Of a stretch of 64,000 nucleotides of DNA, positions 17,628 to 63,691 are shown piece by piece. Source of the stretch: Azolla caroliniana (taxonomy: Eukaryota > Plantae > Polypodiophyta); NCBI GenBank assembly GCA_043228905.1, contig JBHGNT010000014.1:9734001-9798000 (forward strand), given 5' to 3'. Positions within the stretch are counted from its first letter, which is position 1. Each line of letters opens with the position of its first letter. Position numbers and translations under genes: made by a program. Below the pieces are notes generated by a model. It was not told where the DNA came from. It ran no database searches and was given only the letters and a program-made list of their open reading frames with translations.

Positions 17628-18126
17628 TGTCACGGACACACTAAGCGCGGACTAGGACGGAGTACAGATTATGGGGCTACGAGCGACGGATGAACTTCGA
17701 GCTAGATGTGACGAGGCTAGGAACTCTAGATGTTGTGAGTGACATGAGGGCATGAAGACAGAAATAAAGATCAAGGAAACAAAGATGAGGCGAAACGAGA
17801 ATACTAGATTGATGTGTCAATGACTGGAGTTGAATTCCTTGAAAGGGACCAAGGATATTACACGTATTTATACAATTTCCGAGATTGAATATCTCTAGAA
17901 TATACTTGAGAAATATCTTGAGAATATACATGTTTAGAATATACCACAAAATAATTCTAGAATATACTAACGACTAGAATATTCTCGAATGTACTATACA
18001 TTGGACTATACAATATATACAAGTTCACAATTAAATGCGGATAATTCACAAGAGTTTCCATATGGTTAACATACCACAATGTATTGTGTGTGTTAAAAGT
18101 TAGAGGTTTGAGTTTAGATTGTGACA
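17628..18126 (-). mobile_element. Solo LTR (499 bp), TSD ATACC
   Basis: TGTCAC...GTGACA termini; ATACC at 17623-17627 and 18127-18131; homologous in inverted orientation to 60139-60620; TATA on the minus strand at 17865-17872. Confidence 0.9.
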
Positions 18127-18544
18127 ATACCCTTAGAACATGACTTTTAATACAAATACTTCACTTATCTATCCACGTACCATCGCCTATACACTCATAC
18201 ACTTACAATCCCACGGATAACACATATGACATGCCAGTGGGACAGTGCCTTGCATGGGTGAACCCACATGCCGTCAATAAACATGAACATCGGTCCTCAA
18301 GGACCGGAACTTACAACCGAAATTGCCGCGGTCTTCTCCCATCATGTTGGTCGGAACTCCCTCGATCGAAACACGCGTAACACGAATAATCTTATATTTC
18401 AACGACACAAACCTCTCATTCGGTCGACACATCGGCGAATATAAGAACTTCGGTACTTTCTTTTAAGTCTTAAAACGATGTCGTGTATATGTGTGTGTGT
18501 TTTTCTTTATGTTATGTGAGTTGTAAGTTTACAAAATTTTGTCC

Positions 18545-18735
18545 ATGCCCTTTGGTGTTTTTGGAATGTTATTCCTTGCTGCCCTCGAGTTTTTGAAATT
18601 GTGTTGATGATGCCCTTCGGTTTTTGAAATCTACAGCTGCCCTTAAGTTTTTGAAGATGCCCTTCTATTTTTTTCCATAACTTACCCTCAAGTTTTTTAA
18701 ATTCCTTTGGATGCCCTCACGTTTCGGAATTTTTA
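18545..18735. repeat. Array of ~7 T(G/A)CCCT-N3-GTTTTTGAA-like motifs, resembling DNA-transposon subterminal repeats
   Basis: tgccctcgagtttttgaa, tgcccttcggtttttgaa, tgcccttaagtttttgaa, taccctcaagttttttaa, tgccctcacgtttcggaa and others. Confidence 0.65.
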
Positions 18736-19301
18736 TGTGTGCGCCATTGTCTTTGTCTTTTTTCTTGTCTTCTTCTTCGTCGTCGCAATCTTCTTTCATC
18801 CTCCGTTACATCGATATGTATGAGGAGGACCCATGCAACTAGCATGGATCGAGAATCTACCCAAAGATTCTGTGTGGTGGTTTGAAGGATCTATCCGCCT
18901 ATTATGCAGAGAACGACACGATTGTTCCTATGTTTTGGTTGAGAAGAAGCAATCGTTGACAGTCATCGTTGTCTCTTCCATCGCAGGTATTGCGATGGAA
19001 GAGATGCAACTCTCTCTGCACACAATTGATGATGATGATGATGATGATTGTTGCCTGAACACATGATCAAAGCGACTGCAGAGATGGCGATGGTGATCCT
19101 GATCCAACAACAGACGACCATGGATAGTAAGGGTTTGTAGATGCGATGGATACTTACCTCTAGAGCCCTAACAAACACCTCCATACTCGAGAAAAGGTAG
19201 TGAGCTATGGTGTGGGGACTCATAGGATTATTGGCTCCACATGATGATTCCAATGCTTGCCTCCTCCTCCTTTGGTGCATGACATGGTTGAGGTATAGAC
19301 A

Positions 19302-20021
19302 CGTAAGGGTGTACCATGCGTCACGTTTATATGATCGGTTATAGTGAGGTAATGATCGAATAAAAAGACCACAAAACACACACAATGACACAATAAAGAT
19401 GACACAAGATTTAACGTGGAAAAACCCTCGATGAGGGAAACAACCACGGGACAAAGTCCAAAACCAATCGGACTATCACCAAAGAGATACAACACAAATA
19501 CAAGTTCTACCTCTAGATATACTAGAGATAAGTAGAGATGTGTAGCAAAATGTTGTACTGACAAAGATGGTACAATAATCCACAGAAATGAGGCTAACTT
19601 ACTGAAGCATATGAGTGAAAGCGAAGAGAGAATGAAACCCGCATAAAAAAGCCCACAAGTCGAAGTAATAAGCGTGTAGATCTCATGTTGAATAGTGGAG
19701 GTGGAAGGTAGATGAGTTGAGCACCAAGTTTTGCTATTTTTCCATTCTCTCCTCTTCACCATCATGTCTCCTTTCCACTCTCTCTTCTCTTTATACCTCT
19801 CAAAACAAAACGGTCGTTTTTCGTTTTGTTTTCCCTTTCCTTCTTTCTTTTCTTTACACACACTAAAAACATAACTTACATTTACCCTTTTCAAGAAATA
19901 ATGTAAGGGTAATAATTACTAAAGAAATAAAACGTTCGTTTTGTTTTATATTACTACCTACCACTAATAATAAATATCATTAAAAGAAAAAAGAACAAAA
20001 TAGTGATCGGACACATTAACA
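19302..20021 (-). mobile_element. Probable solo Copia-type LTR
   Basis: Contains GATTTAACGTGGAAAAACCC...GGGAAACAACCACGG, the motif also seen in the LTRs at ~25030 and ~60790. Ends TTAACA. Left edge and TSD (AGACA/AGACC) imperfect. Confidence 0.55.
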
Positions 20022-20385
20022 AGACCATGCAGGAAGGCCATCGACCACGCTAGCCTCTCTCTCTCTTCTCTTATGGCTCTCAGCCTTTCCCTCCACCAAT
20101 ATCTTCTCTGCCTCCCCATCATCAGGCGGTGATGCTTCTCCGCGCGATTGATTATCTGATTGTTGTAGTAACTGCTATTTCAGCAAAGCGAGATTGCTTC
20201 AATCTGCCCACAAACAGAGGAAGGCGAAGCAGGGGTGTTGCCTGAATGATCGGAACCTGTAAAAAGAGTAGCATGGTTTATATCCACAGATGATGACGAT
20301 GAAGAAGCATTGGTGGTGATATTTGCGGATGATTATAAGGACTTCTTGAAATGATTACGGTTATGTATAATTGGGGCCATGATGA

Positions 20386-22916: not shown

Positions 22917-23196
22917 TGTGATATGGCTTCAAAGGGATTCGAACCCATGACCTTGTGTTACATGGGATGAAACCTTACCATTAAACCATGAATTGTAATA
23001 CGAAAGATATTAGTTTCATCTATTATTTCTATAGGAAATTCATGTACATTCTAGATCACTCTGGAACATTCTAGAAACTTCAAGAGTAATCTTTACAACA
23101 CTATAAAAAGAGGCATAAGGCATTATTCCGAACCAATTTGGTTCTACGCCAGTCTTAAGCCTCCTAGTTGTTCTTGTATCGTTCTTCATATAATAT
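22917..23196 (+). mobile_element. 5' portion of an LTR carrying an antisense tRNA-like module, a 4-unit HSE and a TATA box
   Basis: Starts TGTGAT exactly where the Copia integrase breaks off. Box B/A on the minus strand at 22935-22988, HSE at 23064-23081, TATAAAAAG at 23102. Cut by a new TGTTGAGAATC LTR at 23197. Confidence 0.7.
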
Positions 23197-24660
23197 TGTT
23201 GAGAATCGAACTCAACTTCCCATAGAGACAGTGTTCACACTAGCCAGTTGACAACATACTAGGCTAGTTTTGTAATTAGTGGAAAGGGCACTTTCCCTAG
23301 ATTAGTTGGTATTTAAACCAACCCTTTGTAACTTAGTTACTGTTGGACGTAATATACAGTTTCTTGTTTAGAGCTCTCTCTCTCTCTCCTCCTCCTTGAC
23401 ACGGGATTGCTTCCCATTGAGATCATGGCCATGGAAAGGGTTGTTGAATACATGCTTACGGTTCAAAAGATTCCCTTACATCGGCTTCCTAGAATTGCGT
23501 GGGAAAGAAGCAAAAAGATCCAAAAGACACATAAAAGCAAAATTTTGTGCTCCGGTTGGATGCAAGATATAGAAAAATGGTTTGGTAGATGGGATGCGAG
23601 ACACTTGCTTCATGATGCATCATTAGATTCCTCTGTAAATGAGGACTTTTTGCAACGCCAATGTATCATGACATGGGACAAATGTGGAGGCTCGCGCTTC
23701 ACACATCATACTACACATGTTGCACCTAACTACAAAACCATATTCTTTACGAAACGGGGAAATCGTACACATCAATACATGTTAGAGCCCATACCGTTAT
23801 CTTCCATTCAAACCATTGCTTCCATGCGACTTAGCTCACATGCATTGCGATGTGAAACAGGGCGTTGGGGCACAAGTGATGAGAGTGTTCGGCTATGCAC
23901 ACTTTGCCCTAAACAAGTTTGCGAGTCTGAGTATCACACTTTGATACAATACTCTGCCTTTGATCATATTTGACCATGCTTTCCACATCTCTTCGATCAA
24001 GCCCAATCTTTGCATGAATTCCTCTCACAACCACAATGTGCACTCTCGATTGCAACATTCATTGGTAAAGTTCTTGAACATCGAGAGTCACTACTCACTT
24101 TGACACGTATCACGTGAAATGTAATATTTTTGGTCTCATAGGTCATATTTGACCTCCGAAGACGATAATATAATCTATCAATCAATCAATCAATCAATCA
24201 ATCTATCTATCTCTTGTCTCACGTGCACATACACACACAAAGTTCTTCTGCTGCACAAAATCACTTTCCTTTATTTACATGGTATTAGAGCGCGTGGTAG
24301 CTTGATCCAAGATCGTCTTTATATGTGTTGTGCTTAGGCTCGTATTCAGAGAGAAACGATTGATCGTTGTAGCAATGATCTGCATAGTTCGCATCAAGAG
24401 TAGAAGAAGTTCAACATTGAACACTCAGATGGGAAGCGCTCTTCCCACCGAGAAGCTCGATAGAACAAACTTTGCATTTTGGGAGTACAAGATGCATCAG
24501 TACCTTGTTGGACAAGGTTACTAGAGCTACATCGAGGGAGCCCACGAAATGCAACCCAACCCGACACACGCCGACTACATAGCGTGGGAGCAGATCGCGA
24601 GCCGTGTGTTGTACTGCATTGCGTCACGCGTTCATGACCACATGCTCAGATATATTCGAG
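23197..24660 (+). mobile_element. Copia 5' end: LTR (23197-24279, split by a LINE), PBS 24280-24291, gag start
   Basis: TGTTGAGAATCGAACTCAAC resembles the LTR starts at 34717 and 53315; ...TTTACA TGGTATTAGAGC; gag MGSALPTEKLDRTNFAFWEYKMHQYLVGQGY. Confidence 0.8.
23388..24210 (+). mobile_element. 5'-truncated LINE 3' end (RTEX/RTE-like by inference) with (ATCA)n tail, inserted in the CT tract of an LTR
   Basis: LLLDTGLLPIEIMAM...RLSSHALRCETGRW...RLCTLCPKQVCESEYHTLIQ (C-terminal Cys/His motif), short 3' UTR, then an ATCA/ATCT microsatellite at ~24172-24210. Confidence 0.85.
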
Positions 24661-26103: not shown

Positions 26104-26282
26104 TAGCAAAAGGTTTAAAAGTTTTGAAGGTTTAAAGGTTTATAGGTTTGGTTTGGTTTTGATTTATGATAAACTGATTTGGTTTGGTTTAAATGGCTTC
26201 ATAAAATTTAAACAGTTTGGTTTGGTTTGGTTTCAAGGCCAAGAAATCGAACCGAATCGAAACCAAACCGCGCCCATTGCTA
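26104..26282. mobile_element. hAT-type MITE (179 bp), 8-bp TSD GTTCTTGC
   Basis: TSD at 26096-26103 and 26283-26290; termini TAGCAA...TTGCTA; internal GGTTT/AAACC subterminal repeats. Confidence 0.88.
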
Positions 26283-27981: not shown

Positions 27982-28948
27982 TGTCGTGAAGATCCGTCAC
28001 TAGGCGCGGATCGCGAGGCGGAATTGCCAGGGTTCTAGACCGAAAGGACTCGAAGTTTGCACAAGCTTTAGCGGGAAAGGAATTAAGATAGATTGAAAGA
28101 CAGAGAGATTGAAATAAGAACTCTTGACTTTAGATTTCAAGACATGCATAAAATACATGTTTGCCATTTGGCGCTCATGTATTACATGTGGTGCATGATA
28201 ACCATGTCACTCATTTTAGCTCTCATGTATGAGAATTTATATGTAAAAGTAAAATGATAGAAATATAAATTCAACTAAATGTCATGGCTTAGTGGTAAGC
28301 CTATTGATACTCTTTACTAGGAGGTGCAAGGTTCGAATCCTTACTTGCCCTCCTTGTATATATATATATATATATGTGATATTTATTTATTAATTTGGTT
28401 GCTGGTTGCCGGATGCCGTCGACTACCGCCGGATGCCGGTGCGCCGCTGGATGTCGGTTCCACCAGCTCGTTGGCTCTGTCTCCGTTGGATGAAGGTTCC
28501 ACCGGATCGCCATCGTCGCTTTGCCAGCTGCCTCCGGATCACTAGCTCCATCGCTGATCCGGTTTTGGTTGGCCAAAACCTTTACAAGTAGCTAGGCCAC
28601 CTCCACTATTAGTTCAAGTTACCTTGAACTCTCTATGCTCCACACATAGACACAAAGATAATAACTTTTGCTCCACCTTATATATGGTGAGAGCCTTATT
28701 CGTCCTGTCTATGTGGGATATCTCATAATTTTCTCTTTTTCTTTCGCAACTTCTTACCCACATAAGTTGACACTTAGATGTCTGTTTCTTATGTAGTAAA
28801 GTGCACCTCTTCAAGATCTTCGTCTTTTATACTAAGATATTAAACTTACTTAGAATTAGTATATTCACTATTATTGTTTTATATGATTGACACTTGATTC
28901 TGTACGTTTTATGTGATTTTCACACCATTGCTGAAAATCTTCTCGACA
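27982..28948. mobile_element. Solo Gypsy-family LTR (967 bp) inserted in a Copia integrase
   Basis: Termini TGTCGTGAAGAT...ATCTTCTCGACA, like the LTR at 41131-41983. Removal restores the ...ERKNQT integrase motif. Flanks CCAC/TCGC are compatible with a decayed 4-bp TSD CCGC. Confidence 0.85.
28285..28340 (+). promoter_or_regulatory. tRNA-like RNA polymerase III internal promoter (box A plus box B) inside an LTR
   Basis: TGGCTTAGTGG (28285-28295) and GGTTCGAATCC (28330-28340), starts 45 nt apart. D-stem GGCTT/AAGCC and T-stem AAGG/CCTT pair; acceptor and anticodon stems do not. Confidence 0.75.

Positions 28949-41754: not shown

Positions 41755-41843
<89 letters not shown>
41755..41843. repeat. 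(CT)n microsatellite within the Gypsy LTR
   Basis: Roughly 90 bp of uninterrupted CT. Confidence 0.95.
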
Positions 41844-41846
<3 letters not shown>

Positions 41847-44063
41847 ACTACAGTTCTCTGTCTACCGCAGTCTCGTCGCCTACGCGGAGTGCGGACTCTC
41901 CCCACCTCACTTCCCTGATTCCTTGGTTCAAGACCCCCGTGGTCCTACCCCATTTCTACGCATCCGCGTGAATCTCCGCGACAGCGTAAGTTGAGACATC
42001 GTTTTTGACAAGTCCACATCCTAGTATGCACCAGAGACAACTTCGACTCCAATTCCGCTCGACCTAGAATCCGCCGAACAAGAGATAGAGGATGAAGATC
42101 GCCTTATGCATATGTTCGAAGAAAGTTCGATCACGACCCAACTGAGCGGACCACAAGAGCCTCCGAGCGATCAAAGCACATCTCGACCGAGTCCGAAGCT
42201 AGACAAAGGGAAGGCCAAATTTTGAAGTATGAAGACGATCATTTCGACGGCATCGAATCGACTCACTCCCTTGATAGTGAGTTCGAAGGCCTTGACATCC
42301 GGACAAATGGAGTGAAGAAAGCCTTAGAATCCGCAAACAAGAAGCTTCGAAGATCCACCCATGAAAAGAACCATGTAAGCCGATTCGGTTATGATGAGTA
42401 CATGGCATACCATACGCATTTATGATGAAGGTGGCAACAGTGCGGGAGCTGGAAACCTTTTCCAAAGCCGTGATGGACCCGCGATGGATCGAAGCAATGA
42501 ACGAGGAGATGCGTGCACTACGCAAGAACAAGACATGGGATCTCGTTCCCCACTCACCGCACAAGAAGGCAATTGGCGGCATATGGATCTACAAGGTGAA
42601 GTATAATTCCGACAGCTCCATCAACCGCTACAAAGCTCGACTCGTAGCGAAAGGATACGCACAAACACATGGAGTCGACAATGAAGAGACCTTTGCCCTG
42701 GTGGCAAAGATGACGACGATGTGGACCGTAATTGCACTCGCAACGGCGAAAGGGTGGCACCTCCACCAGACGGACATCAAGAACGCTTTCCTCCAAGGGG
42801 AATTAGAAGAGAAGGTGTACATGGTACAACCTCCCGGCTTTGAATCGCACATTCATCCGAAAGCCGTGTGCCAACTCAAGAAGCCACTCTACGGCCTCAA
42901 GCAAGCACCGCATGCTTGGCATTCGAAGATTACGCAATATCTTCATCAAATCAGTTTTTGCATGTCGAAATCTGACAACTCCCTCTACGTACGACATGAC
43001 TCTAGAAGCTTAATTGTGATCATCCTATACGTGGATGATCGGGTCATTCGAGGTGAAAGTCTAGTCGACATCAACAAGGTCAAGTCCCTCCTCTCCGGAA
43101 AATTCGGGATGACGGACATGAAGGAGCTCCATTACTTCCTGGGCATCGAAGTAATTCGGATTCCGACTAGCATTATGATCTCTCAACTGCACTACATCCT
43201 CAACTTGTTAACAAGTTCGGGATGACTGAGTGCAAATCGGTGGCCGCTACGCTGTCGGGGTAGTTGTGCTTCGTGCGGCGAAGTCGCAGGGACTAAGGTT
43301 AAGGGGAGTTGAAGGAACTTTTATTAGGCTTGCGCGCAAATGTTAGGAAGATAAAGGATATGAGGAATAATAGTTTAAAGTAATATGTGTGAGAGAGAGA
43401 CTAGTATAGATAAAAGATAGAGGCAATGTATGATTCAAGACGCAAGATAGAGACAAAGTATGATTTAAGACAAAAAAATATATGATATGAACATGACGTA
43501 TATTATGAATACAAGATTTTACCAACTTTACAATGTTTGGTAGCAAGATGAACCCTTTCTCTACCGACCCTTGATTCGAACTCTTGACTCCAACTTGGAA
43601 ACACAAGCCTCTTCACCAACAAGCTAACTTGTTTGTTTCTTTGATTATCTTATTTCTCTAACTTTCTCTTGATTCCCCCTTTTTTCATCCCTTAATTCCT
43701 TGCCTCTCTTTATAGGTTCTCTCATGCATATGATGATATGGGGGTGCATTGCATGCATGTAATGCATGTGATGCATGTGATGCATGATCGCCATTTGGTG
43801 CACATGCTTTACATGTGATGCATGATAGCCATCATGCTCATCTAAACTCTAATGTATGAAGAAACGTGTCATAAGTATGATAAAAATATAACTATAGAAA
43901 ATAACTTATCTTAATGGTATATGCTTCGTCCTTGGTGTGTGAGGTTATGGGTTCAAGTCTCTCAAATGTTACTTAATACAATATTCAAGTTTATTTTTAT
44001 ATCGTGAAGCAAATCCTTCACGACACCCAGCCCCTCTGAACTTGCACACTAGTTGTGCAAAGT

Positions 44064-45071
44064 TCATCCAAAGTCTTGGAAAAACTCTTCATTCCATTTC
44101 TGAACTGGATGTTCCCTCAAGCATTCTTTGTTTCTTTCATGGTTGGGCCTCACGGTTAAGAATTGGACAGTCTTTCTTCCATCTTGACTCTTGATTCTCG
44201 CGAAAGCCGAACCATCATCAATAACCTTTGTTTCCATCCTCATTGCAGTGATGTAGGGCTGACCAAGGATGACGGGGTAGGTTGATCGATCCTGCACAAA
44301 GAAATTTTGATTCACTGACACATCACCAATTGTTACCTTCACACTAGGACATGCTCCAAATAGATCCTCCGTAGTCTCTGTGGCAGCTCTTATTTTCCAC
44401 CCATGATTCTTGTCGATCGGCCATCGTCCTCGAGCGTAAAATTCCGATGACATCATGTTAATCTCGGATCCATGATCGATCAAAGCAATACATGGAATTT
44501 GCTGCTCCCCAATTTTTGCAGGTGCCTCCGTTGTTGCTCGAGCCCAATGGTCCCTTGTATAGTGACTCCTATCCCCTTCATGGACGCCAACATCATTCTG
44601 GTTTTTTACACTTGCAGCATTGATGGTGCCAGAATACAAATCTTGGAGTGTTGTTGCACACCCTCCCGTAATTTCCTCCGTCACTTGTCTCTTCCTTCTA
44701 ATAATATCTATGATAACTTCATGAAATTCTTTCTTTGCTATACCCAACACTTCTCTTAAAGTAAATTCTACCTTACTATTTAGTATTCTTGTTTCTAGTA
44801 CCTTTTTTATATCCGTCGTTTTTTCTAGGTCTGAGGCAAGCTTGAAAGATGGGCCTGTCTTTCCTTTTACTTTATCAGCTTCCTTCGGCTCAGTAGCACC
44901 CTTTTCCATCTCCCTTCTCTTCTGTTCTCGTGTCTCATGTCTCTTTGTTGGATCAGCTTCCTCAGCTCTCTTCCGCTCCTCTTCCACTAGCACATCTCGT
45001 GCATTCACTTGGGCGAATGCTGATAGCGCGTCTACTGGATCATTCCATCCAGTGAAGTTTTCGTATTTCAT
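44064..45071 (-). CDS. Gag C-terminal/aspartic protease part of the TR-GAG-like element (one-base frame break from gag)
   Basis: ALIDHGSEINMM and VILGQPY protease motifs; clearly homologous to 31922-32325 (QFLTVRPNHERN vs QFLTVRKNHEWN). Confidence 0.85.
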   Translation of the reverse strand: MKYENFTGWNDPVDALSAFAQVNARDVLVEEERKRAEEADPTKRHETREQKRREMEKGATEPKEADKVKGKTGPSFKLASDLEKTTDIKKVLETRILNSKVEFTLREVLGIAKKEFHEVIIDIIRRKRQVTEEITGGCATTLQDLYSGTINAASVKNQNDVGVHEGDRSHYTRDHWARATTEAPAKIGEQQIPCIALIDHGSEINMMSSEFYARGRWPIDKNHGWKIRAATETTEDLFGACPSVKVTIGDVSVNQNFFVQDRSTYPVILGQPYITAMRMETKVIDDGSAFARIKSQDGRKTVQFLTVRPNHERNKECLREHPVQKWNEEFFQDFG

Positions 45072-46182
45072 CTCCCGCTCTTTTTAATTCATCCACTCGA
45101 ACCTTCCCTTTTCTTGCATAATCCATCACATCTTGCCAAAAGCCAGATCCACCATATGAGTCTTCTACGTGCAACCCTAAGGTTGCCACGGATTGTATCG
45201 CTTGAGTCGTTTCTCTCTCGGCATCTTCCATTAGCTTTTTCATTCCTCCTCGCCCGAAGTTGAGTTGAAGTGGTTGTCGAGTCTCTGTCGAGTGAATCTT
45301 GCCCTCTTGATAGTAGATTTTATTATGATTAAGAGCATCCCTATGCTCTTGACAATCTTTCTTCTGGTGGTCGATACTATCACACCACATACACCTTCGG
45401 ACCATTCCACCTCCCTGCCTTGATGAAGTCGAGCTTTGTCCCGATTCTAGCTTTGTCACTTTGATCGACAAGTCTTTCATACCTTTCACCAATTCGTGTA
45501 AGAGTGATTCTTCTACTTTCTTTTCTCCCGACTCGTTCCCCGTTTCTTCATCATTTCTGTCGGGCAACTCCATAAACCATAACTTTCTTTTGCAGAAATG
45601 GGCGCACACCCTTTTCACCTCCTCCCAGTCTTCGGTAAGTCCACTTGGACTATTCTGATCTTCTAAAAGCATTCCCAAGTCCTTCCTGTCTTTAATATTA
45701 GTAGCTTGTAGAAACAATATTACTTTATCTGGCACTATTATATTTCTATCTCTAACATTTAGTTGCTCAAATCTTTCAGAAAACTCTTTTAATACTTCCA
45801 AAACACTTAAATGTTTATTAGACTCTACCCAATCCATGAAAGCTCGCCTTATCATCCTTGACATATCGTTGAGGTTGTATGCATTTAGCAATGCTCTTTC
45901 GAAAGTCGCCCATGTCTGATGTTCCCTCTGTAGCTCCTGGATCCTCTCTTGTAGCCCAATCGCAGTGACTCGACTAAAGCTATTAATTTTTGCAGCTTCG
46001 TCGACACCGCGTTTAAGCATTTCTTCATTATAAATCTTCAAAAATCTTGTTAAATTTATACCTTCGAAGATTCCTACTCGTGTGAGAATATTGTCGACGG
46101 CTTTGTCGATGCTTGCCATCATCCCTTGTTCCCGCATCACTCGTTCCATCATCGTACACATAAGCCTCATTTGCTCCTCCAT
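45040..46182 (-). CDS. Gag of the TR-GAG-like element
   Basis: 380-aa ORF starting just after the PBS; FEGINLTRFLKIYN, WATFERALL, zinc knuckle CMWCDSIDHQKKDC. Confidence 0.85.
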   Translation of the reverse strand: MEEQMRLMCTMMERVMREQGMMASIDKAVDNILTRVGIFEGINLTRFLKIYNEEMLKRGVDEAAKINSFSRVTAIGLQERIQELQREHQTWATFERALLNAYNLNDMSRMIRRAFMDWVESNKHLSVLEVLKEFSERFEQLNVRDRNIIVPDKVILFLQATNIKDRKDLGMLLEDQNSPSGLTEDWEEVKRVCAHFCKRKLWFMELPDRNDEETGNESGEKKVEESLLHELVKGMKDLSIKVTKLESGQSSTSSRQGGGMVRRCMWCDSIDHQKKDCQEHRDALNHNKIYYQEGKIHSTETRQPLQLNFGRGGMKKLMEDAERETTQAIQSVATLGLHVEDSYGGSGFWQDVMDYARKGKVRVDELKRAGDEIRKLHWME

Positions 46183-47056
46183 TTCTCCTCGTCGCCGCTT
46201 TCACGTCGGGTTCACCAAATGTGTCGGGGTAGTTGTGCTTCGTGCGGCGAAATCGCGGGGACTAAGGTTAAGGGGAGTTGAAGGAACTTTTATTAGGCTT
46301 GCGCGCAAATGTTAGGAAGATAAAGGATATGAGGAATAATAGTTTAAAGTAATATGTGTGAGAGAGAGACTAGTATAGATAAAAGATAGAGGCAATGTAT
46401 GATTCAAGACGCAAGATAGAGACAAAGTATAATTTAAGACAAAAAAATATATGATATCAACATGATGTATATTATGAATACAAGATTTTACCAACTTTAC
46501 AATGTTTGGTAGCAAGATGAACCCTTTCTCTACCGACCCTTGATTCAAACTCTTGACTCCAACTTGGAAACATGAGCCTCTTCACCAACAAGCTAACTTG
46601 TTTATTTCTTTGATTATCTTATTTCTCTAACTTTCTCTTGATTCCCCCTTTTTTCATCCCTTAATTCCTTGCCTCTCTTTATAGGTTCTCTCATGTATAT
46701 GATGATATGGGGGTGCATGGCATGCATGTAATGCATGTGATGCATGTGATGCATGATCGCCATTTGGCGCACATGCTTTACATGTGATGCATGATAGCCA
46801 TCATGCTCATCTAAGCTCTAATGTATGAAGAAACATGTCATAAGTATGATAAAAATATAACTATAGAAAATAACTTATCCTAATGGTATATGCTTCGTCC
46901 TTAGTGTGTGAGGTTATGGGTTCAAGTCTCTCAAATGTTACTTAATACAATATTCAAGTTTATTTTTATATCGTGAAGCAAATCCTTCACGACAACGCCT
47001 CTCGATCGAAACCTCAAACTAGATGTTGACTCCGGCACAGACGAGTGCAAGCCGAC

Positions 47057-50000: not shown

Positions 50001-52505
50001 ATCGTCAATAAAACTGACGAAGTAAGAGGCACCGCCTAGAGACTGATGCGGCATTGGGCCACAGACGTCCGAATGGACTAAATCAAGAGGTCTCGTTTCT
50101 CTTGGTGCTGATGTCGGGTGTGATGCGGCTGCTTGTTTGCCATACTGGCAATGCTCGCAGAATTGATGGTCGGAGAAGGAGAGTTTGGGGATGTATCCGG
50201 CTCTAGATAGGTGCGTGATGCCGGCCTTGCTGAGGTGTCCTAATCTTCGGTGCCATAGTGAAGACACAGGAATATCCACCAAAAACAGGTTACCCTCTCT
50301 GAGCGTAACATGTAACGGATACAGGGAGTGTATCTTAGGTCCTCTAGCAAGCAGGAGGTTCCCCCTGTGGAGTGTCCACCCTCCCGAAGAAAAACCGGCA
50401 CGAATGCCGTCTTCATCTAGTTGTCCGACTGAGATCAATGGCCTTGAGAGCTCGGGTACATGTCGGACATTGTGGAGTACAAGTGTAGAGCCACCTGCAA
50501 GGTTGAGCTCTACTGTGCCGATTCCGATGATGTCACAGTGTTGTGAGTTGCCGACCCGAACTGAGTCGGAGTGACGGATCGTATATTGCCGAAATTGGGA
50601 CCGATGAGGAGTCACATGAAATGACGCGCCCGAATCCAAGAGCCATGTGCTCGATTCTTCAGTCGTGAGCAGAACTTCTGATCCGACTGGATTTTCGATT
50701 GATAGTATATTCGGGTCGTCCGGTAGTACATCAGCTGAGGAGCTGACGTAATTGATCTCCTCATGCCGGCCACTCTTCTTGTTGTTCTTGTTCTTGAGTG
50801 CGCGGCAGTCGGCTTTGATGTGTCCGGGTTTCTTGCAATAGTTGCAGATTCGGTTATCCCGTGACTGGCTCCGTCTTCGCTGATTGTTCGGCGGTCGTGA
50901 GGAATCTCTTCCTCGTATGTTCGATCGGTCTGTCGAACCTTGTACTACGTAAGCGTCGTCTGTTGAGTCTTTGGCGAAAGACTTTCTCCGAGCTGCTTCG
51001 GTCAGGATTGCGCTCGTGACTTCGGAGTATTTAACAGCCGTGGTTGACGCGTTGCACACGGTTGTGACGAAAGTTTCCCATGATGAGGGAAGGCTGCTCA
51101 TGAGTATCATTGCTCTGAGTTCATCCTCGATTGCCGTCCCCTGTGACGAGATTTGGGAGCTTATGCTTTCGTACTCATTGAGGTGTGCTTGAACCGAATC
51201 GGATTCTTTCATCCGCAAGTTGTAGAGGCGCCGGATCAGAAACATCTTCGTTGCGGCGACCTTCTTTTCGTAAGTGTCCGACAGTGTTTTCCACAGTTCG
51301 AATGCTGTCGTACACGATTGCACCGTAAAGTATACCGATTCCGATAGGTGCATCCGAATCGTGGCGCGGACGATTCTGTCCAGCTTCTGCCACTCCATTG
51401 GTTTGTATCCTTCTGGAGGTTCTTCATTTTCGATGGGATCGATTTGTCCCTTGACTATGAGATAGTCCTGCATTTGTTCCTTCCAGAAGTTGAAGTTCGA
51501 TCCATCGAACTTTCGTAGACTCATTTCTGACGAGCCGGATGTTGATGCCATCAAATTCGGTTTCGGTTGACGAAGCTCGGTTCGGAGTTGACTACGAACC
51601 TTGTTGGAGTGCAGCCGGTTGGCTCACCCGATATCGTTCTAGTCGGATTTGAACCCGAGTCGGTTCGGCTTCGGAACTTGCTCGAATTGACTCCGGTAGC
51701 TTGAGGGACAGAACCGACTGGTCTTCCCGAATGTTGCCGAGTCGGAGTGAGCCCGGTTCGCTTCGGATATATGTGCCGAATACCGATTATTGAAACCGAT
51801 TATCTGGACCGATTCTGCTTCGGGTGGCTGCAGCGACGAGAGAGACAGATCCAACTGATCCTCTCGAATGTCGATCAGCCGGATGAAGCACGAATTGGGG
51901 TTGTTGTCTTGAGACCGATCTGCACCGAGTGGTTACAACGAGCGGCGTTTGATTACCTCTTCGGATGCCGTTTAACCGAATGGAGCACGATCGTGTCAAT
52001 GATGCACAAGGGGATTTCACCTCGAGCGGTTACGATCACAACGAACAGAGTACGACCTGATGGCTTACTCCAAGCAAGATGATCTAACGCAATGAGATGC
52101 AAACCTGGTTTTTCTTCTTCTTCTCTCTTCTTCGAATGACGCAGGAAACCGAATGCAGAGACGACGGCCGACAGCGGATTGAAGGACCGACTACTGTGCA
52201 GGCTCTGATACCAGATGTTGGAAGCAATGTCGTCAATGCGGAAGATCAAGAAGCACTCGATTCCTGTTTATTCCCTGTGTATGACAGTTTCTATGTCGTT
52301 GCACAGAGAGAGAGAGAGAGAGAGAGAGAGGCACAAAAGAGTCTTTATTTCATAAAGAAGAATAATACAACAACCCAACCTCACAAAGAGGTTACAAGGT
52401 CACTATATATAGTGACCGACTTAGGGCAACTACCCTTTATGCTAATTACATAAATGGCCGAAACGGGATGGTGTGAATACGTCCATTATACACATGTATT
52501 CGACA
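47057..52505 (-). mobile_element. Intact, very recent Ty1/Copia; TSD CCGAC
   Basis: LTRs 52216-52505 (290 bp) and 47057-47344 (288 bp) appear identical except for one AG unit. Met-i PBS 52201-52213; PPT next to 47345; CCGAC at 47052-47056 and 52506-52510. Confidence 0.98.
47538..51551 (-). CDS. Copia Gag-Pol polyprotein (1337 aa): Gag, CCHC, PR, INT, RT, RH
   Basis: Uninterrupted ORF with CNYCKKPGHIKADC, WLLDSGASFH, HSDVCGP..TDNGGEF..NGIAER, YVDDML, YTDSDFAG..TTEAEY..SDSQGA..NVADGMTK. Confidence 0.97.
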   Translation of the reverse strand: MASTSGSSEMSLRKFDGSNFNFWKEQMQDYLIVKGQIDPIENEEPPEGYKPMEWQKLDRIVRATIRMHLSESVYFTVQSCTTAFELWKTLSDTYEKKVAATKMFLIRRLYNLRMKESDSVQAHLNEYESISSQISSQGTAIEDELRAMILMSSLPSSWETFVTTVCNASTTAVKYSEVTSAILTEAARRKSFAKDSTDDAYVVQGSTDRSNIRGRDSSRPPNNQRRRSQSRDNRICNYCKKPGHIKADCRALKNKNNKKSGRHEEINYVSSSADVLPDDPNILSIENPVGSEVLLTTEESSTWLLDSGASFHVTPHRSQFRQYTIRHSDSVRVGNSQHCDIIGIGTVELNLAGGSTLVLHNVRHVPELSRPLISVGQLDEDGIRAGFSSGGWTLHRGNLLLARGPKIHSLYPLHVTLREGNLFLVDIPVSSLWHRRLGHLSKAGITHLSRAGYIPKLSFSDHQFCEHCQYGKQAAASHPTSAPRETRPLDLVHSDVCGPMPHQSLGGASYFVSFIDDSTRKVWAYPIRTKDRVFSIFTDWLAMVENQTDRKLKCLRTDNGGEFKSDEFVKFCRQRGIRREFTAPHSPEQNGIAERMNRTIQERIVSMLQHSGLSDGFWAEALLTAVHIINMSPSRPLGLQIPQELWIGSKPNYDKLRIFGCEAYALIPKDDRRKLAPRSRKCIFLGYGSDDEMGYRLWDPERRQIVRSSDVVFNESAMTPSVEKPIEVRRVTFSDVPTLQEGPALNTRSAPRVAEPYTTDSDNSDSAQPNDSVSDHPTSIPDATSPIIPRRSERLSQPPERYSPGIFFTDAGEPTSYEEASTSVDSATWHLAMESEMHSIRANKTWDLVELPRNRRALPCKWVYRLKETSDSTTPKYKARLVAKGFRQEYGVDFDEIFSPVVKMTTLRFLLGVVAADNLELIQLDVKTAFLHGDLEEEIYMEQPKGFVATGQEHLVCRLRKSLYGLKQAPRQWYKKFDDFIQSIGFSKSDEDHCLFTNTAQDGSPIFLIIYVDDMLISGRHAGELADLVRQLRLKFAMKDLGPARHILGMKISRHRDKRHLFLSQTDYIGRVLERFNMQSAKSASTPLPMNLRLSQRDCPTSGSEGEDVKSVPYAPAVGSLMYLMVATRPDISHAVGVVSRFMHNPGRSHWNAVKHVFRYLAGTKDHGILFGPNRTSGVVGYTDSDFAGCIDSRKSTTGYCFKFGNGAISWKSKLQECTATSTTEAEYVAASDAAKEALWLGRLAHTFRQVDHDSAPVVYSDSQGAVALSKNPVHHNASKHIDVRYHFVRDCVISGKIGLEKISTTDNVADGMTKCLSADRFRSLRHQMGVTTNQSG

Positions 52506-53809
52506 CCGACCCAATATCGTCAACTGATCAGGAGCCTCATCTATCTCACGATCACTCGACCCAACCTTAGCTATCCAGTCGGACTCCTTAGCCAATTCAT
52601 GCAAACTCTGCGAGATATCCATTTCGATTGCGCTAAGCGAGTATTACGATACGTGAGTGGCACAATGGATTACGGTGTTCTCTATGCATTGGCCACACCA
52701 ATATGACTCGAAGGGTACACAGACGCGAACTGGGCAGGCTACAAAGCTTATCAACGATCGACCTCCGGATTTGTCTTTTGACTTGATATCTTGGAGTAGT
52801 AAGAAGCAGCCTACTATCGCACTTTCAAGTACGGAGGCCGAATACAAGGGCGCAGCCATAGCTGCATGTGAAGGCGTATGGCTCAAGAGGATTTTGAAGG
52901 ATCTGGGCGTTCCCATCAAGGATCCGACTCCCATTTACTGCGACAACATGAGCAGTATATATCTGGCTCGGAACCTGGTGTTCCATGCACACACAAAGCA
53001 TATCTAAGTGCACTATCACTTTATTCGAGAGCGTGTACAGGTCGAGGATGTCGATCTTCTACACATCAACACGAATCTTCAGACAACTGACATCTTCACC
53101 AAGGCCCTAGGAGCCGACAAGCTTCGGCAATTGATGTCAGACCTCGGATTGACAATCCCTGACTTGTAAAGCTTGAGGGGGAGTACAAGTGAGAACCGGA
53201 TACCGTCCAAACCGGGTACGAGCCAAAGCGAACACCGGAGATCGTCCAAACCGGATACCAACCGAAGCGGACATCAACCGAAAGGAACCGACCCGATTTG
53301 AGCTTGAGGGGGCGTGTTGAGAATCAAGCTCAACATAGTGTAACGTGTGAACCACCCTTTGAGCATCCATGAGCACTCAAAGGTCAAGAGTCATACCACT
53401 CTCTACACATTAAACTATGTGTCATAGAATCATATTCTGTGACACATAACTAATGGGTTCCACATTCCCCATGACCATAAGACTTCACATTCCTCAAGGC
53501 TCTAGTGAGAGAATGGATGTTGTCGTGAGTAAATGAAGAGAGAGGGTGACCGTATATAAAGCACCCTCCTCCTACTTCATATCAAGTCGGTTGTGACTCC
53601 TTGTAATGCTACAATTTTGTATCTATATTCTACTTGTGAAATATACACCTTCTTCTTGAGTATTTTATTTCTCTTGCTTATTTATCTTGTGCTCTCTTCT
53701 CTCCTCTATTTTTTCTCACACACAAACACACATATCTATTCCGTTGCACAAGAATCACCATCGATTCTTTGCACATATCTATCAAAAATCCTCTATCAAG
53801 GTAGACATA

Positions 53810-54800: not shown

Positions 54801-55734
54801 AACCTCTTTCTTTGTATTGACAAGGAGAAAGATGGTAATGGACATTGTGAATGTGTGTTTGTGTCTAGGATTGTGAGAATTTTTTCTTATCGCTTAACGG
54901 GGTTTTTTTCTCACACAATAATTTGGTATATTTTTAGTATTTATACTCCTTTTTCTATAGCCTACCATAATGCGAAGGAGTTTTTTCATTTTCTTTTTTT
55001 TAGGCTCACCATAAATGGTTCACTCAACAAGCAAGGAGGGGGGCTAAATGTGAAGTCAATTTTTGCTCGTAAGGAAATACCATGGCAAATACATCGGATA
55101 CTAAGGTGTATAAGAATAAAGCACAATATGAAAGGTTCAAGAGTCAAAGGACGAATGAAATTGAAGGGATATGAAGTTAGAGGCGTTTTTCCAAAAGTAG
55201 AAAAAGCAGGAAAAAAAGAAAAAAAGAAAAACACATAAAAAAGGCAAAGAAAAAAGCTCATAACTTCTTCATCTCATATCCAAATTTCAAAAGAAAAGAT
55301 TTGTAAGAAAGCTGACAAAGAGAGCTTTCTTGTATGACAAATGTGGATAACAAAACAAAAATAATGATATGAAAAATGCATCACACAAACTCGAGGATAT
55401 GTAGAAAGAAAAGAAAAGAAAAAAGCAAGAATAATGCAACTAAAAACCTATAAATATGAGGGTATTCTTAGCAATTGGGAGAGACATGAGGAGGAATCAA
55501 AGATCTACAAGAATAAGTGAGGAAGAATAAGAAGATTAGAAGAATTGAGAAGACGATTAGTAGAAGAAAGAGAGAAGAAGGAAAGACTATTTTACTAATA
55601 GTATATTGAAGTAGTTATTTGGGGTTGTTACTTTTCGAGTCTAAGAGGATTGTATTCTTTTCTTAATAGTATATTGCAGTATTCTTTTCTCTTCCTCTTC
55701 TCTTCTCTATCCTTTTTCTCTCTCTCCTCATCAC

Positions 55735-57540: not shown

Positions 57541-60095
57541 CTATTGCAAGAAGCCTGGACATGTTAAAGCCAATTGTCGCACCCTCAAAGCCAAGAATGA
57601 TAAAGTTTGGCGGGCTTATCAGAAGGGTAGTTGGCATGAGGAGGTTAACTACATCGGCTCATCAGTTGAAATACTGATAGATGATCCAAACATCTTGTTT
57701 ATAGAGAACTCAGTCAAATCAGAAGTTCTACTTACAACTGAGGAATCGAGCACATGGCTCTTGGATTTGGGAGCATCCTACAACATGACCCCTCATTGAT
57801 CCCAATTTCCGAAATATTCAGCCTAGCATTCTGACTCAGTCCGAGTCGAAAATTCGTAGCACTGCATTATAGTTGGAAACGACATTGTAGAGCTCAACCT
57901 TCCGGGTGGTTTTACACTAGTGTTACACAATGTTTGACATGTACCTGAGCTCTCAAGACCATTGATCTCAGTCAAACAACTTGATGAAGACGGCATATGT
58001 GTCGGCTTCTCATCATGAGGGTGGACACTCCACAAGATGAACCTCTTGTTTGCTTGAGGCCCTGCTTACAACAATACGCATAATTAATATGTCACCGAGC
58101 AGGCCTCTAGGGCTTCAAATACCTCAGGAATTATGGACTAGTAGTAAGCCGAATCACAAAAAGCTGAGGATTTTCGAATGTGAGGCATACACCCTCAGAC
58201 CGAAAGACGATCGCCGAAAGCTTGAACCAAGGTCCAGGAAATGATTTCCATGGCTATGGACCACACAGTGAAATCGGATAATGACTCTAGGACCCAGAGA
58301 AGGAACATATCATCCGAAGTTCGGACGTTGTCTTCAATGAGTCGGTCATACACAAGACGGCCAAAAGGCCTATTGAAGTTCGAATGGTAACTTTCTCAAA
58401 AGTGTCAGCCCTTCATGACGGCCCAGCCCAAAACACGAGGTCAGCTTCACGACTCAGATACGCAATCCGGCTAGCCCAATCATACCCAAGAAGATCAGAA
58501 AGACTGTCACATCCTCCAGAGAGGTACTCTCCCAGAATCTTCTTCACGGACGTTGGCAAGCCGACATTATACGAAGAAGCATCGGCGTCGGCCGATTCGG
58601 CAACATGGCATCTAGCAATGGAGTCAAAGATGAACTTCATTTGGCAAAATAAGACTTGGGACCTGGTCGAACTACCGAAAAATCACATGCTCTTCCGTGC
58701 AAGTGGGTCTATAGATTAAAAGAGACGATTGATTTGACCAACCCAAAATTCAAGGCAAGATTAGTAGTGAAAGGGTTCGGACATGAATATGACGTTGATT
58801 TAGATGAGATCTTCTTACCAATGGTGAAATTGACGACCCTTCTTCATTTCATGCTCGGCATCGTGGTAGTCGAGGATTTGGACCTGATACAGTTAGATGT
58901 CAAAACGGCCTTCCTCCATGGTGACCTAGAGGAGGAGATTTATATGGAGCAGTTGAAAGGTTTTGTGGTAATCGGCCAGGAACATCTAGTATGCTGGCTC
59001 AGGAAGAGTCTATACAACTTGAAATAGGCATCTCGGCCCTGGTATAAGAAGTTCGATGACTTCATCCAATTGGTCGGCCTCTCCAAGCATGATGAAGACC
59101 ACAGTCTCTTCGCAAAAATATCTCGAGATGAGTCACCCATCTTCCTCATCATCTACGTGGACGACGTGCTACTCTCCGGCCGGCATGCTGGAGAGCTCGC
59201 CGAACTTATCCAACAACTACGGTTGAAGTTTTCCATGAAGGACTCAGTCCAACAAGACACATTTTGGGATGAAGATAAGTCAAATTCGGAATTCATGACA
59301 CCTATTCCTATCTCAAGTGGACTATATTGGACGTGTCTTAGAATGCTTCAACATGCAATCGACCAAATCTCGTGACTACCTGACATCCGGTCCAGAGGAG
59401 GAAACTATGAAGCCAGTACCATACGCACCAGTTGTCGGCTCCTTGATGTACGCGATGATCGCAATACGACCGAACTTAGCTCATGTCATAGGAGTCGTCC
59501 GCAGATTCATGCACAATCCCAATCGAATGCATTGTAACGCAGTGAAGCATGTGTTCAGATATTTTGTGCGCACAAAAGACAACGGTATCCTATTTAGCCC
59601 AACCGAGAATTCAGGCGTAGTCGGTTACACCGACTCGAACTTTGCCAACTGCTTAGACAACCGAAAATCAACAACCGGATATTTCTTTAAATTTGGCAAA
59701 GTACCAACCTCATAGAAGTTAAACTCCAAGAGTGCGTAGCCACTTCAACCACCGAAGCTGAATACGTAACCACATTCGATGCGACAAAGGAAGCTCTATG
59801 GCTTAGATGGTTGGCACACACATTTTGACAAGCTAATTCTGAGTCTACTCCATTTGTCTACAACGACAATCAAGGCGTCGTTGTTTTGTCCAAAATTCCA
59901 GTTCACTATAACACCTCGAAGCATATCGATGTTTGATATCACTTCGTTCGTGACTACATCATTTTTTAGAAGCTCGGCCTTGAGAAACTACCGACAACCG
60001 ACAATGTAGCAAATGGGATGATCAAGTGTATTTCGGCAAATCGTTTCTGGTCAGTTCAGCACCAGATGGGCGTTAAGAGAAATAGTCTGATTGAG
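57536..60095 (+). mobile_element. Decayed, internally deleted relative of the intact Copia at 47057-52505
   Basis: YCKKPGHVKANC, HEEVNY, SEVLLTTEESSTWLLD, INMSPSRPLGLQIPQELW, PPERYSP match the 1337-aa polyprotein. The integrase core is missing around 58050. Confidence 0.92.
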
Positions 60096-60138
60096 TAAGA
60101 CGTTCAAAATGGTTTCAGGCAATTGGCATCGACATTAC

Positions 60139-60620
60139 TATCACAAACATGACAACTGACATGTCAAGATTTGAACTCTTGACCTCTTGTATTATAATCA
60201 AGTGTTATATTCTAGCCAATACATTCAAATACATGATCAGTTATATATATCTTGGTAGATTATTAGTAGATTATCTATTTCAAGTTCTAGGAGTTTTTAG
60301 AAAGTTCTAGAACTAGAAGGTTCTAGAATATTCTCGCGAATTTTAATGCATGTACTTCGACTCATAGTATAAATACTTGTAACCTCCTTGGTCCATTTCA
60401 AGGGATTCAACACCAGTCATTGACACATCAATCTAGTATTCTCGTTTCATTCCATCTTGTCTCTGTCATCTCTGTCTTCAGGCTCTCATCTCGCTCACAA
60501 CTTCTCGAGTTCCTAACCTCATCACTTCTAGCTCCAAGTCGTAAGATGTCGCTCGTAGCCCATCATCATTGCCCCATCATTCGCGCTTCGTCCCAGTCCG
60601 CGCTTGGTGTGTCTGTGACA
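60139..60620 (+). mobile_element. Solo LTR, same family as 17628-18126, with degenerate antisense tRNA-like module, HSE array and TATA
   Basis: Reverse-complement homology to 17628-17870; ends GTGACA. Left edge (60139 or 60162) and TSD unresolved. Confidence 0.8.
60300..60375 (+). promoter_or_regulatory. Tandem perfect heat-shock elements upstream of TATA in the LTR
   Basis: GAAagTTCtaGAA (60300-60312), GAAggTTCtaGAAtaTTC (60316-60333), TATAAATA at 60368-60375. Confidence 0.75.
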
Positions 60621-60688
60621 GTTTGAATCCCCTCCAACTGGAAGCATCACCCGTCTTCGACATTGTCATTGCATCTAGAGTTGCCATC

Positions 60689-63595: not shown

Positions 63596-63691
<96 letters not shown>

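What the first reader, a model, noticed from the sequence alone, without database searches (positions are those of the whole stretch)
18055..60218. Recurrent tRNA-like Pol III (box A/box B) module built into the LTRs of several different retrotransposon families
Seen: five separate insertions carry an AGGT-N4-5-GTTC(G/A)A-T-C-like 'variable loop plus T arm' string with a box A-like string about 41-50 nt upstream. They are 28285-28340 (+, gaggtgcaaGGTTCGAATCC), 22935-22988 (-, aaggtcatgGGTTCGAATCC), both TR-GAG LTRs at 43907-43960 and 46876-46929 (+, gaggttatgGGTTCAAGTCT), 60167-60218 (-, gaggtcaagAGTTCAAATCT) and 18055-18115 (+, decayed GGTTTGAGTTT). Where LTR orientation is readable (4 of 5), the module is antisense and within ~120 bp of the U3 terminus, pointing away from the element's own TATA. 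No poly-A tail or TSD brackets it, so it does not look like a fresh SINE insertion. Known: A/B boxes bind TFIIIC, tRNA genes act as chromatin barriers in yeasts, and Cassandra TRIMs carry a 5S-derived Pol III promoter in their LTRs. Inference: these LTRs keep a tRNA-derived TFIIIC site as an insulator against silencing or as an outward Pol III promoter. I cannot confirm that this is unreported.
Basis: partly seen in the sequence, partly recalled or inferred. Interest (0 to 1): 0.85.

Follow-up and report, generated by a model that had tools for sequence, protein, structure and literature searches.

The report
tRNA-promoter boxes bracket retrotransposon promoters
Several Ty3/gypsy jumping-gene families of a non-seed plant (likely a fern), including complete protein-coding ones, keep the two promoter boxes of a tRNA gene in their end-repeats while the tRNA shape itself is lost, often on both sides of the element's own predicted promoter, where they likely recruit the tRNA-gene factor TFIIIC to keep that promoter open.

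Summary
All six strings are at the stated places and lie antisense in LTRs, but they come from about three lineages, not five: two Phygy-like insertions (the 'TR-GAG' is a pol-deleted Phygy-like gypsy), two Tcn1-like LTRs and one unassigned LTR. The 18055 copy is decayed. In 80 related Phygy-like loci the module recurs in 14 of 20 families with readable LTRs, including autonomous ones. In LTRs picked without the motif, boxes A and B are 0.74-0.76 identical and the spacer 0.39, the A-B gap of about 32 nt is kept, and no tRNA stem survives. So selection likely acts on the DNA boxes. Best reading (0.5): TFIIIC sites that bracket and protect the Pol II promoter; no binding or RNA data exist. tRNA-like LTRs are published for non-autonomous Helenus TRIMs; my 10 searches found no account for autonomous plant elements. 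This scan noted LTR-borne tRNA-like promoters before in other genomes, none for this module in the look-ups of this genome.

The parts
17628..18126 (-). Solo LTR a, Tcn1-like by inference; TGTCAC..GTGACA ends, 5-bp TSD ATACC
   Evidence: 77% to LTR b
18055..18115 (+). Decayed antisense module in LTR a; box B has lost its invariant C; gap about 39 nt
   Evidence: about 14 bits, not above chance alone; homologous copies in LTR b and L008
22917..23198 (+). LTR fragment e, lineage unassigned; inserted in a copia integrase, cut at 23199 by another LTR; TATA-like at about 23101; left end uncertain by 2-3 nt
22935..22988 (-). Antisense module in LTR e: box A, 32-nt gap, AGGT, perfect box B
   Evidence: 43.7 bits; RF00005 22.4 bits, below its gathering score of 29
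27982..28948 (-). Solo LTR d, Phygy-like, mosaic; decayed 4-bp NCGN TSD (CCAC / TCGC); inserted in a copia integrase
28285..28340 (+). Antisense module in LTR d, 34-nt gap, perfect boxes, about 618 nt from the U3 end
   Evidence: (42.7 bits)
43253..46994 (-). Element c: pol-deleted Phygy-like Ty3/gypsy; LTRs 43253-44025 and 46222-46994 (98% identical), 4-bp TSD ACGC
   Evidence: matches L001 but lacks its pol region
43572..43626 (-).
   Evidence: 23.8 bits
43907..43960 (+). Antisense U3 module, 3' LTR of element c
   Evidence: 41.1 bits
44026..44037 (-). Polypurine tract of element c
   Evidence: same motif precedes the LTR in the related loci
44064..45083 (-). ORF with DUF4100 and a protease-like C-terminal part (P0122)
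45040..46200 (-). Gag-like ORF (no Pfam hit; homologous to the first ORF of L001)
46200..46217 (-). Primer-binding site shared with the related loci; tRNA-Trp identity is recalled, and fits the Phygy row of PMC6317226
46541..46595 (-). Second, sense module in the 5' LTR; box B C mutated to T in this LTR only
   Evidence: 18.0 bits
46677..46683 (-). TATA-like box of the 5' LTR (predicted Pol II promoter), 236 nt from the antisense box B
   Evidence: read from the sequence
46759..46768 (.). GCCANNTGGC palindrome in a CATG-rich putative enhancer, 151 nt from box B
46876..46929 (+). Antisense U3 module, 5' LTR of element c
   Evidence: 42.6 bits
60139..60620 (+). LTR b, likely the 5' LTR of a Tcn1-like element; TATA at about 60368
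60167..60229 (-). Antisense module in LTR b; strong AGGT and box B, weak box A, gap about 38 nt
   Evidence: (21.4 bits)
60621..60633 (+). Site after LTR b complementary to the start of its R region (self-priming signature), no tRNA PBS
   Evidence: family contigs run on into this stretch

Best explanation
These Ty3/gypsy LTRs keep tRNA-gene box A and box B sequences, with tRNA spacing but no tRNA fold, and likely use them as TFIIIC binding sites that would hold the element's own Pol II promoter open, often as an outward-facing pair on both sides of it. Shown: the boxes, their spacing, their conservation over spacer and flank, the loss of stems, their presence in autonomous elements, and their position 157-236 bp upstream and about 120-170 bp downstream of the TATA-like box. 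Inferred: an origin from a tRNA gene or tRNA-SINE head captured into an LTR long ago, then spread by LTR copying, tandem duplication and exchange of U3 segments between families. Inferred and untested: TFIIIC (with or without TFIIIB) binds, positions nucleosomes and blocks silencing or read-through from the surrounding repeat nest, so that copies with intact boxes transpose more often. The genomic RNA itself must still be made by Pol II.
For: (1) Non-circular conservation: 10 non-redundant LTR segments picked by enhancer homology only; 9 of 10 show both boxes; column identity box A 0.76, RAGGT 0.71, box B 0.74, spacer 0.39, the 4 nt before box B 0.36, downstream 0.48. (2) Selecting on the box B core only: 35 hits in 50 kb of LTR segments against 20 in 229 kb of internal DNA; among non-redundant hits AGG at -8 in 15 of 25 against 0 of 13, and the box A GG at -35 to -31 in 17 of 25 against 0 of 13. 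(3) Gaps of 20-60 nt were allowed, yet most modules show 32-33, with spacer identity 0.35, like the flanks at 0.30-0.33 (19 modules). (4) No stem is paired above permutation (acceptor p=0.28, D 0.71, anticodon 0.89, T 0.55; 15 modules); mean fold z -0.46; no ARAGORN gene in the window or 51 loci, no RF00005 hit in 10 loci. (5) 14 of 20 families carry a module, 11 antisense, 10 sense; antisense families share 45-77% protein identity; 7 of 7 pol ORFs scanned have RT, RNase H and integrase hits. (6) In the Tcn1-like family contig depth peaks locally on AGGT-box B in 4 of 4 runs. (7) Both orientations occur, which suits a bound-protein function. (8) 17-21 T4+ runs in the internal region rule out Pol III making the full RNA. 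(9) In yeast, Pol III complexes and TFIIIC sites phase nucleosomes and act as barriers and insulators (PMC4228148, passages).
Against: No occupancy, chromatin or RNA evidence. Six of 20 families have no module in the LTR parts covered, so it is dispensable. Box A is kept with strict spacing, which suits a real promoter as well as a barrier, for which box B is the main determinant. Strong conservation of AGGT upstream of box B is not explained by the classical consensus. In family c the depth profile rises steadily towards the LTR end with no peak on box B. Sense R/U5 copies are more decayed. Pol III complexes can also repress nearby Pol II promoters. The loci are collapsed assemblies of repeats and may be chimeric: the L033/L040 module lies in a c-type segment nested about 127 nt inside another LTR. 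Barrier activity of TFIIIC in plants was not found in my searches.
Confidence: 0.5

Rival explanations
1. The modules are working Pol III promoters whose short transcripts matter: the U3 copy would fire outward and antisense, giving an RNA of about 100-130 nt that tunes silencing or read-through.
For: Both boxes and exact spacing are kept. Sequence upstream of box A is A/T-rich. A T4 run lies within 33 nt of box B in 13 of 24 antisense and within 35 nt in 4 of 4 sense-U3 modules.
Against: T4 within 60 nt in 15 of 24 antisense modules against 46% of random positions on that strand, so little excess, and the copies are not independent. The would-be RNA has no conserved sequence or fold outside the boxes. 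Sense R/U5 copies mostly lack a near terminator (1 of 9 within 60 nt).
Confidence: 0.22
2. The tRNA-derived sequence is now a binding site for some other factor, part of the Pol II enhancer, and no longer engages the Pol III machinery.
For: AGGT is as conserved as box B; the module keeps a steady 145-173 nt distance to the GCCANNTGGC palindrome in 9 LTRs; spacing is stricter than TFIIIC is recalled to need.
Against: The conserved columns are the known A and B box columns, including the invariant C of GWTCRANNC; the module also occurs in LTRs without the palindrome.
Confidence: 0.12
3. Neutral relics of old tRNA-SINE insertions or template switches onto tRNA, copied passively with the LTR.
For: Patchy distribution on the protein tree (7 changes for the antisense label); several positions and both orientations; SINE insertion into an LTR is the proposed origin of Helenus (PMC10886601). 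Inserted copies decay (18055; 46551).
Against: A neutral relic would decay evenly, but boxes are at 0.74-0.76 and the spacer between them at 0.39 in LTRs picked without the motif; no shared SINE body or tail downstream.
Confidence: 0.1
4. The antisense copy acts in the genomic RNA by pairing with the primer tRNA to help minus-strand transfer, as reported for a tRNA-gene-like sequence in HIV-1 U3/R.
For: The U3 module is antisense, so the RNA carries the complement of tRNA D-loop, variable-loop and T-loop sequence near its 3' end. The HIV precedent was seen only as a reference title; the paper was not held.
Against: The module does not match the element's own primer as read from its PBS: position 62 matches in 0 of 19, position 59 in 2 of 19, positions 63-72 near background. 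The same module occurs in a family with a self-priming signature and no tRNA PBS, and in sense orientation.
Confidence: 0.05

Closest known systems
Helenus TRIMs / TRIMp3 (Kojima 2024, PMC10886601; read parts 1-4 of 6 plus passages)
   Same: tRNA-like sequence inside both LTRs, conservation centred on boxes A and B, mostly no functional tRNA; one plant family (Selaginella). The paper also remarks that 'not a few' Repbase LTRs hold part of a tRNA.
   Different: Helenus elements are 311-1263 bp, non-coding, and are thought to be transcribed from that promoter; the paper argues that autonomous partners must use Pol II. Here the hosts are protein-coding elements of about 6-7 kb with a TATA-like box, the main module is antisense in U3, often doubled, and often paired with a sense copy. 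A word search of the text found no statement on orientation or antisense copies.
Cassandra and Ajax TRIMs (PMC10886601; PMC10946416, passages)
   Same: Small-RNA-gene-derived Pol III promoter built into plant LTRs; Cassandra occurs in ferns.
   Different: 5S-type (A, IE, C boxes), non-autonomous, and the promoter makes the element's RNA; here tRNA-type boxes in autonomous elements that cannot be read through by Pol III.
tDNA and ETC/TFIIIC boundary elements of yeast (PMC4228148, passages)
   Same: Box B-dependent TFIIIC binding with product-independent effects: barrier, insulator, nucleosome phasing, blocking read-through.
   Different: Those are host chromosomal sites shown by experiment in yeast; here the sites are carried by mobile elements in a plant and binding is untested.
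Phygy and Tcn1 Ty3/gypsy lineages (Neumann et al. 2019, PMC6317226; passages and supplement table rows)
   Same: Phygy: 4-bp NCGN TSD, tRNA-Trp PBS. Tcn1: 5-bp TSD, self-priming. These fit elements c/d and a/b.
   Different: The paper's main text has no occurrence of 'tRNA-like'; Phygy was described from Physcomitrella only. I did not place the RT in REXdb.

Membership tests
Helenus / TRIMp3 | tRNA-derived sequence with conserved boxes A and B in the LTRs | tested here: met
Helenus / TRIMp3 | TRIM: short (about 1 kb or less), no protein coding | tested here: not met
   element c is 3.7 kb with two ORFs; related loci have ORFs of about 710-750 and 1090-1240 aa with RT, RNase H, integrase
Helenus / TRIMp3 | Pol III promoter able to transcribe the element | tested here: not met
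   main module is antisense; 17-21 T4+ runs on the sense strand of L001 and L009; actual transcription not measured
tRNA gene | Cloverleaf stems | tested here: not met
tRNA-derived SINE insertion | Shared body, tail and own TSD | tested here: not met
   downstream identity 0.30 among 19 modules; no tail seen and LTR homology continuous; no formal TSD search
Type 2 Pol III promoter / TFIIIC site | Box B GWTCRANNC with invariant C, box A 30-60 nt upstream | tested here: met
   consensus; the box A consensus and spacing range are recalled
Type 2 Pol III promoter / TFIIIC site | TFIIIC or Pol III occupancy, transcript | not testable with these tools
   only assembled contigs were available
Phygy (elements c, d) | 4-bp NCGN TSD | tested here: met
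   ACGC at c; CCAC/TCGC, one change each from CCGC, at d; definition
Phygy (elements c, d) | tRNA-Trp PBS | tested here: inconclusive
   one PBS shared across the loci; its identity as Trp is recalled, not matched to a tRNA here
Phygy (elements c, d) | RT/INT phylogeny within Phygy | not tested
   gag-protease relatives in Physcomitrium, Riccia, Adiantum; RT-RH-INT order; no REXdb placement
TR-GAG (PMC4350172, search listing with start of abstract only) | Under 4 kb, a single ORF coding for Gag only | tested here: not met
   3.7 kb but two ORFs, the second with DUF4100 and a protease-like part; a pol deletion of the L001 type
Tcn1 chromovirus (LTRs a, b) | 5-bp TSD and self-priming site | tested here: met
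   ATACC TSD; R region complementary to the stretch after LTR b; definition
Tcn1 chromovirus (LTRs a, b) | Chromodomain and RT phylogeny | not tested
   no coding region of this family was obtained

The most novel reading that the evidence does not exclude
Autonomous plant Ty3/gypsy elements of at least two lineages have adopted tRNA-gene TFIIIC sites as a portable pair of chromatin boundaries around their Pol II promoter: a cis-acting defence against silencing that borrows the host's Pol III machinery, is swapped between families as a promoter cassette, and scatters thousands of TFIIIC sites through a large non-seed-plant genome.
Probability: 0.3. Interest if true: 0.85.

Novelty: new variant of a known kind. 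Interest (0 to 1): 0.62.

Why it matters
How LTR elements stay active inside methylated repeat nests is an open question, and whether TFIIIC has boundary functions in plants was not found in my searches. If these boxes bind TFIIIC, one point mutation in an LTR reporter tests both questions. It would extend Pol III-promoter capture from miniature non-autonomous elements to autonomous ones, with a job other than making the element's RNA. The module is invisible to tRNA finders, so it could have gone unnoticed in plant genomes. If no binding is found, it remains a conserved LTR cis-element of tRNA origin.

Tried and rejected
No whole genome is held, so genome-wide family comparisons could not be made; related loci came from metagenome contigs instead. 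Viral contigs held no relative. The look-up of sequencing runs: no RNA holder listed; this is no evidence on expression. Only contigs could be laid, so no start, strand or level of RNA; X18 is probably DNA. tRNA gene or tRNA-like RNA structure: rejected. Fresh SINE insertions: rejected. Helenus-type Pol III transcription of the whole element: rejected. Primer-pairing model: mostly rejected. Site 23212 (minus; box B-like loop in the terminal hairpin of a copia-type LTR) scored 16.1, a level reached in 9 of 40 shuffled windows: treated as chance. Landing-pad idea from earlier scan notes: no insertion seen just upstream of box A in the window modules or in the 10 LTR segments; not tested further. 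Rows dropped: one search kept 19 of 26 seed modules as non-redundant; one search used 13 of those 19 (six with shifted or 33-nt gaps left out) plus 2 window modules; one search used 40 of 80 loci (those with LTR cover or a hit) plus the window element and 5 named proteins; L017 was labelled 'none' there because its module lies outside the 1-kb segment (seen). Literature: 10 searches; one search returned nothing; the library lacks most subscription journals and Repbase; I did not read the Helenus supplements, which could list non-TRIM LTRs.
Full report
Setting. The window is plant DNA, likely a fern: the transporter gene at 8440-9558 has Ceratopteris richardii as best named relative (79%); only the best-sharing candidates were scored, so another non-seed plant is not excluded. 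From about 15 to 61 kb it is a nest of LTR elements. No whole genome is held.

Observation. With a matrix trained on outside loci (some are relatives of elements c and d), four sites score 41-44 bits and 60177 scores 21; shuffled windows reach 20 in 1 of 40. The 18055 copy, at about 14 bits, is not significant alone and rests on homology. No tRNA gene is found; RF00005 gives one hit below threshold at 22924-22974.

The carriers. Element c (43253-46994, minus) has 98% identical LTRs, a 4-bp TSD ACGC, a PBS and PPT shared with the related loci, and two ORFs, one with DUF4100. Its protein has relatives in Physcomitrium, Riccia and Adiantum, and it aligns to the autonomous locus L001 except for pol. 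NCGN TSD and Trp PBS define Phygy (PMC6317226 supplement row); the Trp identity of this PBS is recalled. It is therefore a pol-deleted Phygy-like gypsy, not a TR-GAG. LTR d (27982-28948) is a Phygy-like solo LTR with a decayed NCGN TSD and a mosaic make-up. LTRs a (17628-18126, TSD ATACC) and b (60139-60620) are one family (77%); b is followed by a stretch complementary to its R region and not by a tRNA PBS, which with the 5-bp TSD fits Tcn1; its coding region was not seen. LTR e (22917-23198) is truncated and unassigned. So five insertions, about three lineages. The copia LTRs of the window gave no score above chance.

Related elements. An alignment search of metagenome contigs gave 80 loci. 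They are collapsed assemblies of repeats, many probably from related hosts, and may be chimeric. Of the 40 with LTR cover or a hit, plus the window element, 20 families at 85% protein identity emerge: 11 with an antisense module, 10 with a sense module, 6 with none; antisense families share 45-77% identity, and the label needs 7 changes on the tree. One antisense family (L033/L040) owes its module to a nested c-type segment. Module-bearing loci include complete elements: 7 of 7 pol ORFs scanned hit RT, RNase H and integrase. The three loci L044, L060 and L073, which group with the named moss, fern and liverwort proteins, showed no clear module.

Is it selected? Two tests avoid picking on the result. 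Picking on the box B core alone gave 35 hits in 50 kb of LTR segments and 20 in 229 kb of internal DNA; non-redundant LTR hits had AGG at -8 in 15 of 25 and the box A GG at -35 to -31 in 17 of 25, internal hits 0 of 13 for both. Picking LTRs by the enhancer alone gave 10 non-redundant segments, 9 with both boxes; identity was 0.76 (box A), 0.71 (RAGGT), 0.74 (box B), against 0.39 (spacer), 0.36 (4 nt before box B), 0.48 (downstream) and 0.65 (just upstream of box A, next to the part selected on). The gap is 32-33 nt in most modules though 20-60 was allowed. Contig depth over LTR b peaks locally on AGGT-box B in 4 of 4 runs (for X1: 30.9k, 46.3k, 20.1k, 6.8k, 1.8k in successive bins). Over LTR c depth only rises towards the end (1.0k, 2.3k, 2.6k, 8.1k, 11.4k, 33.2k, 42.7k), which is not support by itself; 5 of the 15 joints shown resume at 46911-46914, the AGGT. 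The twin sense copies at 43582 and 46551 differ at the invariant C, so copies decay after insertion and conservation is likely kept only along transposing lines.

DNA or RNA? Mapped on tRNA numbering, the conserved columns are the box columns and 44-47. No stem is paired above permutation in 15 modules (p 0.28-0.89); folding is unremarkable (mean z -0.46, 1 of 19 below -2); ARAGORN found 0 genes in 51 loci and Rfam no tRNA hit in 10 loci. The module does not match the element's own primer as read from its PBS (0 of 19 at position 62).

Architecture. Box B of the innermost antisense copy lies 21-618 nt from the U3 end but 157-236 nt upstream of a TATA-like box where one was found, and 145-173 nt from a GCCANNTGGC palindrome in 9 LTRs. 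Tandem antisense copies are 136-148 nt apart in L001, L007, L008 and L009. A second, sense copy lies about 120-170 nt downstream of the TATA-like box in element c, L001 and L009, with similar R/U5 copies in L006, L007, L008, L011, L028 and L031/L034, so the predicted Pol II promoter is often bracketed by two outward-facing modules. Four loci have a sense copy in U3 instead or as well. Terminator enrichment is weak (15 of 24 within 60 nt against 46%), and 17-21 T4+ runs bar Pol III from making the genomic RNA.

Mechanism. Most likely (0.5) the boxes are TFIIIC sites acting in DNA to keep the LTR promoter open or shielded, as yeast tDNA and ETC sites act as barriers and phase nucleosomes (PMC4228148, passages). 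Binding, boundary activity and any gain in transposition are inferred. Rivals: short Pol III transcripts (0.22), another factor (0.12), neutral relic (0.10), primer pairing (0.05).

Known work and novelty. tRNA-like LTRs with conserved boxes are published for Helenus TRIMs, one of them in Selaginella, and the paper notes in passing that other Repbase LTRs hold tRNA parts (PMC10886601, parts 1-4 of 6 and passages). Cassandra is the 5S analogue (passages). These elements fail the TRIM test and cannot be transcribed in full from the boxes. Ten searches found no description of antisense or bracketing A/B boxes in autonomous plant gypsy LTRs; subscription journals, Repbase and the Helenus supplements were not seen. 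Earlier scan notes describe LTR-borne tRNA-like promoters in other genomes; the look-ups for this genome showed none on this module, though only 8 rows of 45 and of 36 were shown. Verdict: real, likely selected, a new variant of a known kind, function untested.

Noticed in passing
window 47057-52506 (minus): Young, apparently intact Ty1/copia element: 1361-aa open frame with gag, protease, integrase and RT hits, terminal repeats 99% identical; it sits just beyond element c in the RT region of another copia.
   Followed up: no
window 43995-44025 and 46964-46994; U3 starts of many L loci; window 23199-23218: U3 termini begin with a short hairpin (the terminal 10 nt repeated in reverse after a 6-nt loop) in Phygy-like LTRs; a copia-type LTR has a similar terminal hairpin, whose loop at 23212 resembles a T-loop.
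   Followed up: partly
window 17880-17990, 23040-23085, 60280-60335: Repeated TTCTAGAA words, like heat-shock elements (recalled), between the module and the TATA box in LTRs a, b and e.
   Followed up: no
window 27982-28948: Solo LTR d is a mosaic: U3 start like L032/L043, module and enhancer like L011, U5 like L018/L029; suggests exchange of promoter cassettes between families.
   Followed up: partly
L049:12000-12070; L068:3814-4090; L008:3175-3245: Other LTR families with TGTCA-type ends also carry the antisense module close to their U3 end; L068's also has the GCCANNTGGC palindromes.
   Followed up: partly
L001, L007, L008, L009 U3 regions: Tandem module copies are spaced 136-148 nt apart, close to a nucleosome core length; may be chance or shared ancestry.
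   Followed up: no
window 8440-9558 (minus): Single-ORF sugar-phosphate/phosphate translocator gene (PF03151).
   Followed up: partly
window 62853-64000 (minus): Last exons of an SNF2-type helicase gene resembling BTAF1/MOT1 (recognised from the translation by recall, no search).
   Followed up: no
window 3028-3402 and 23411-23786: Dispersed repeat, 80% identical, the second copy followed by a (TCAA)n run; possibly a LINE remnant.
   Followed up: no
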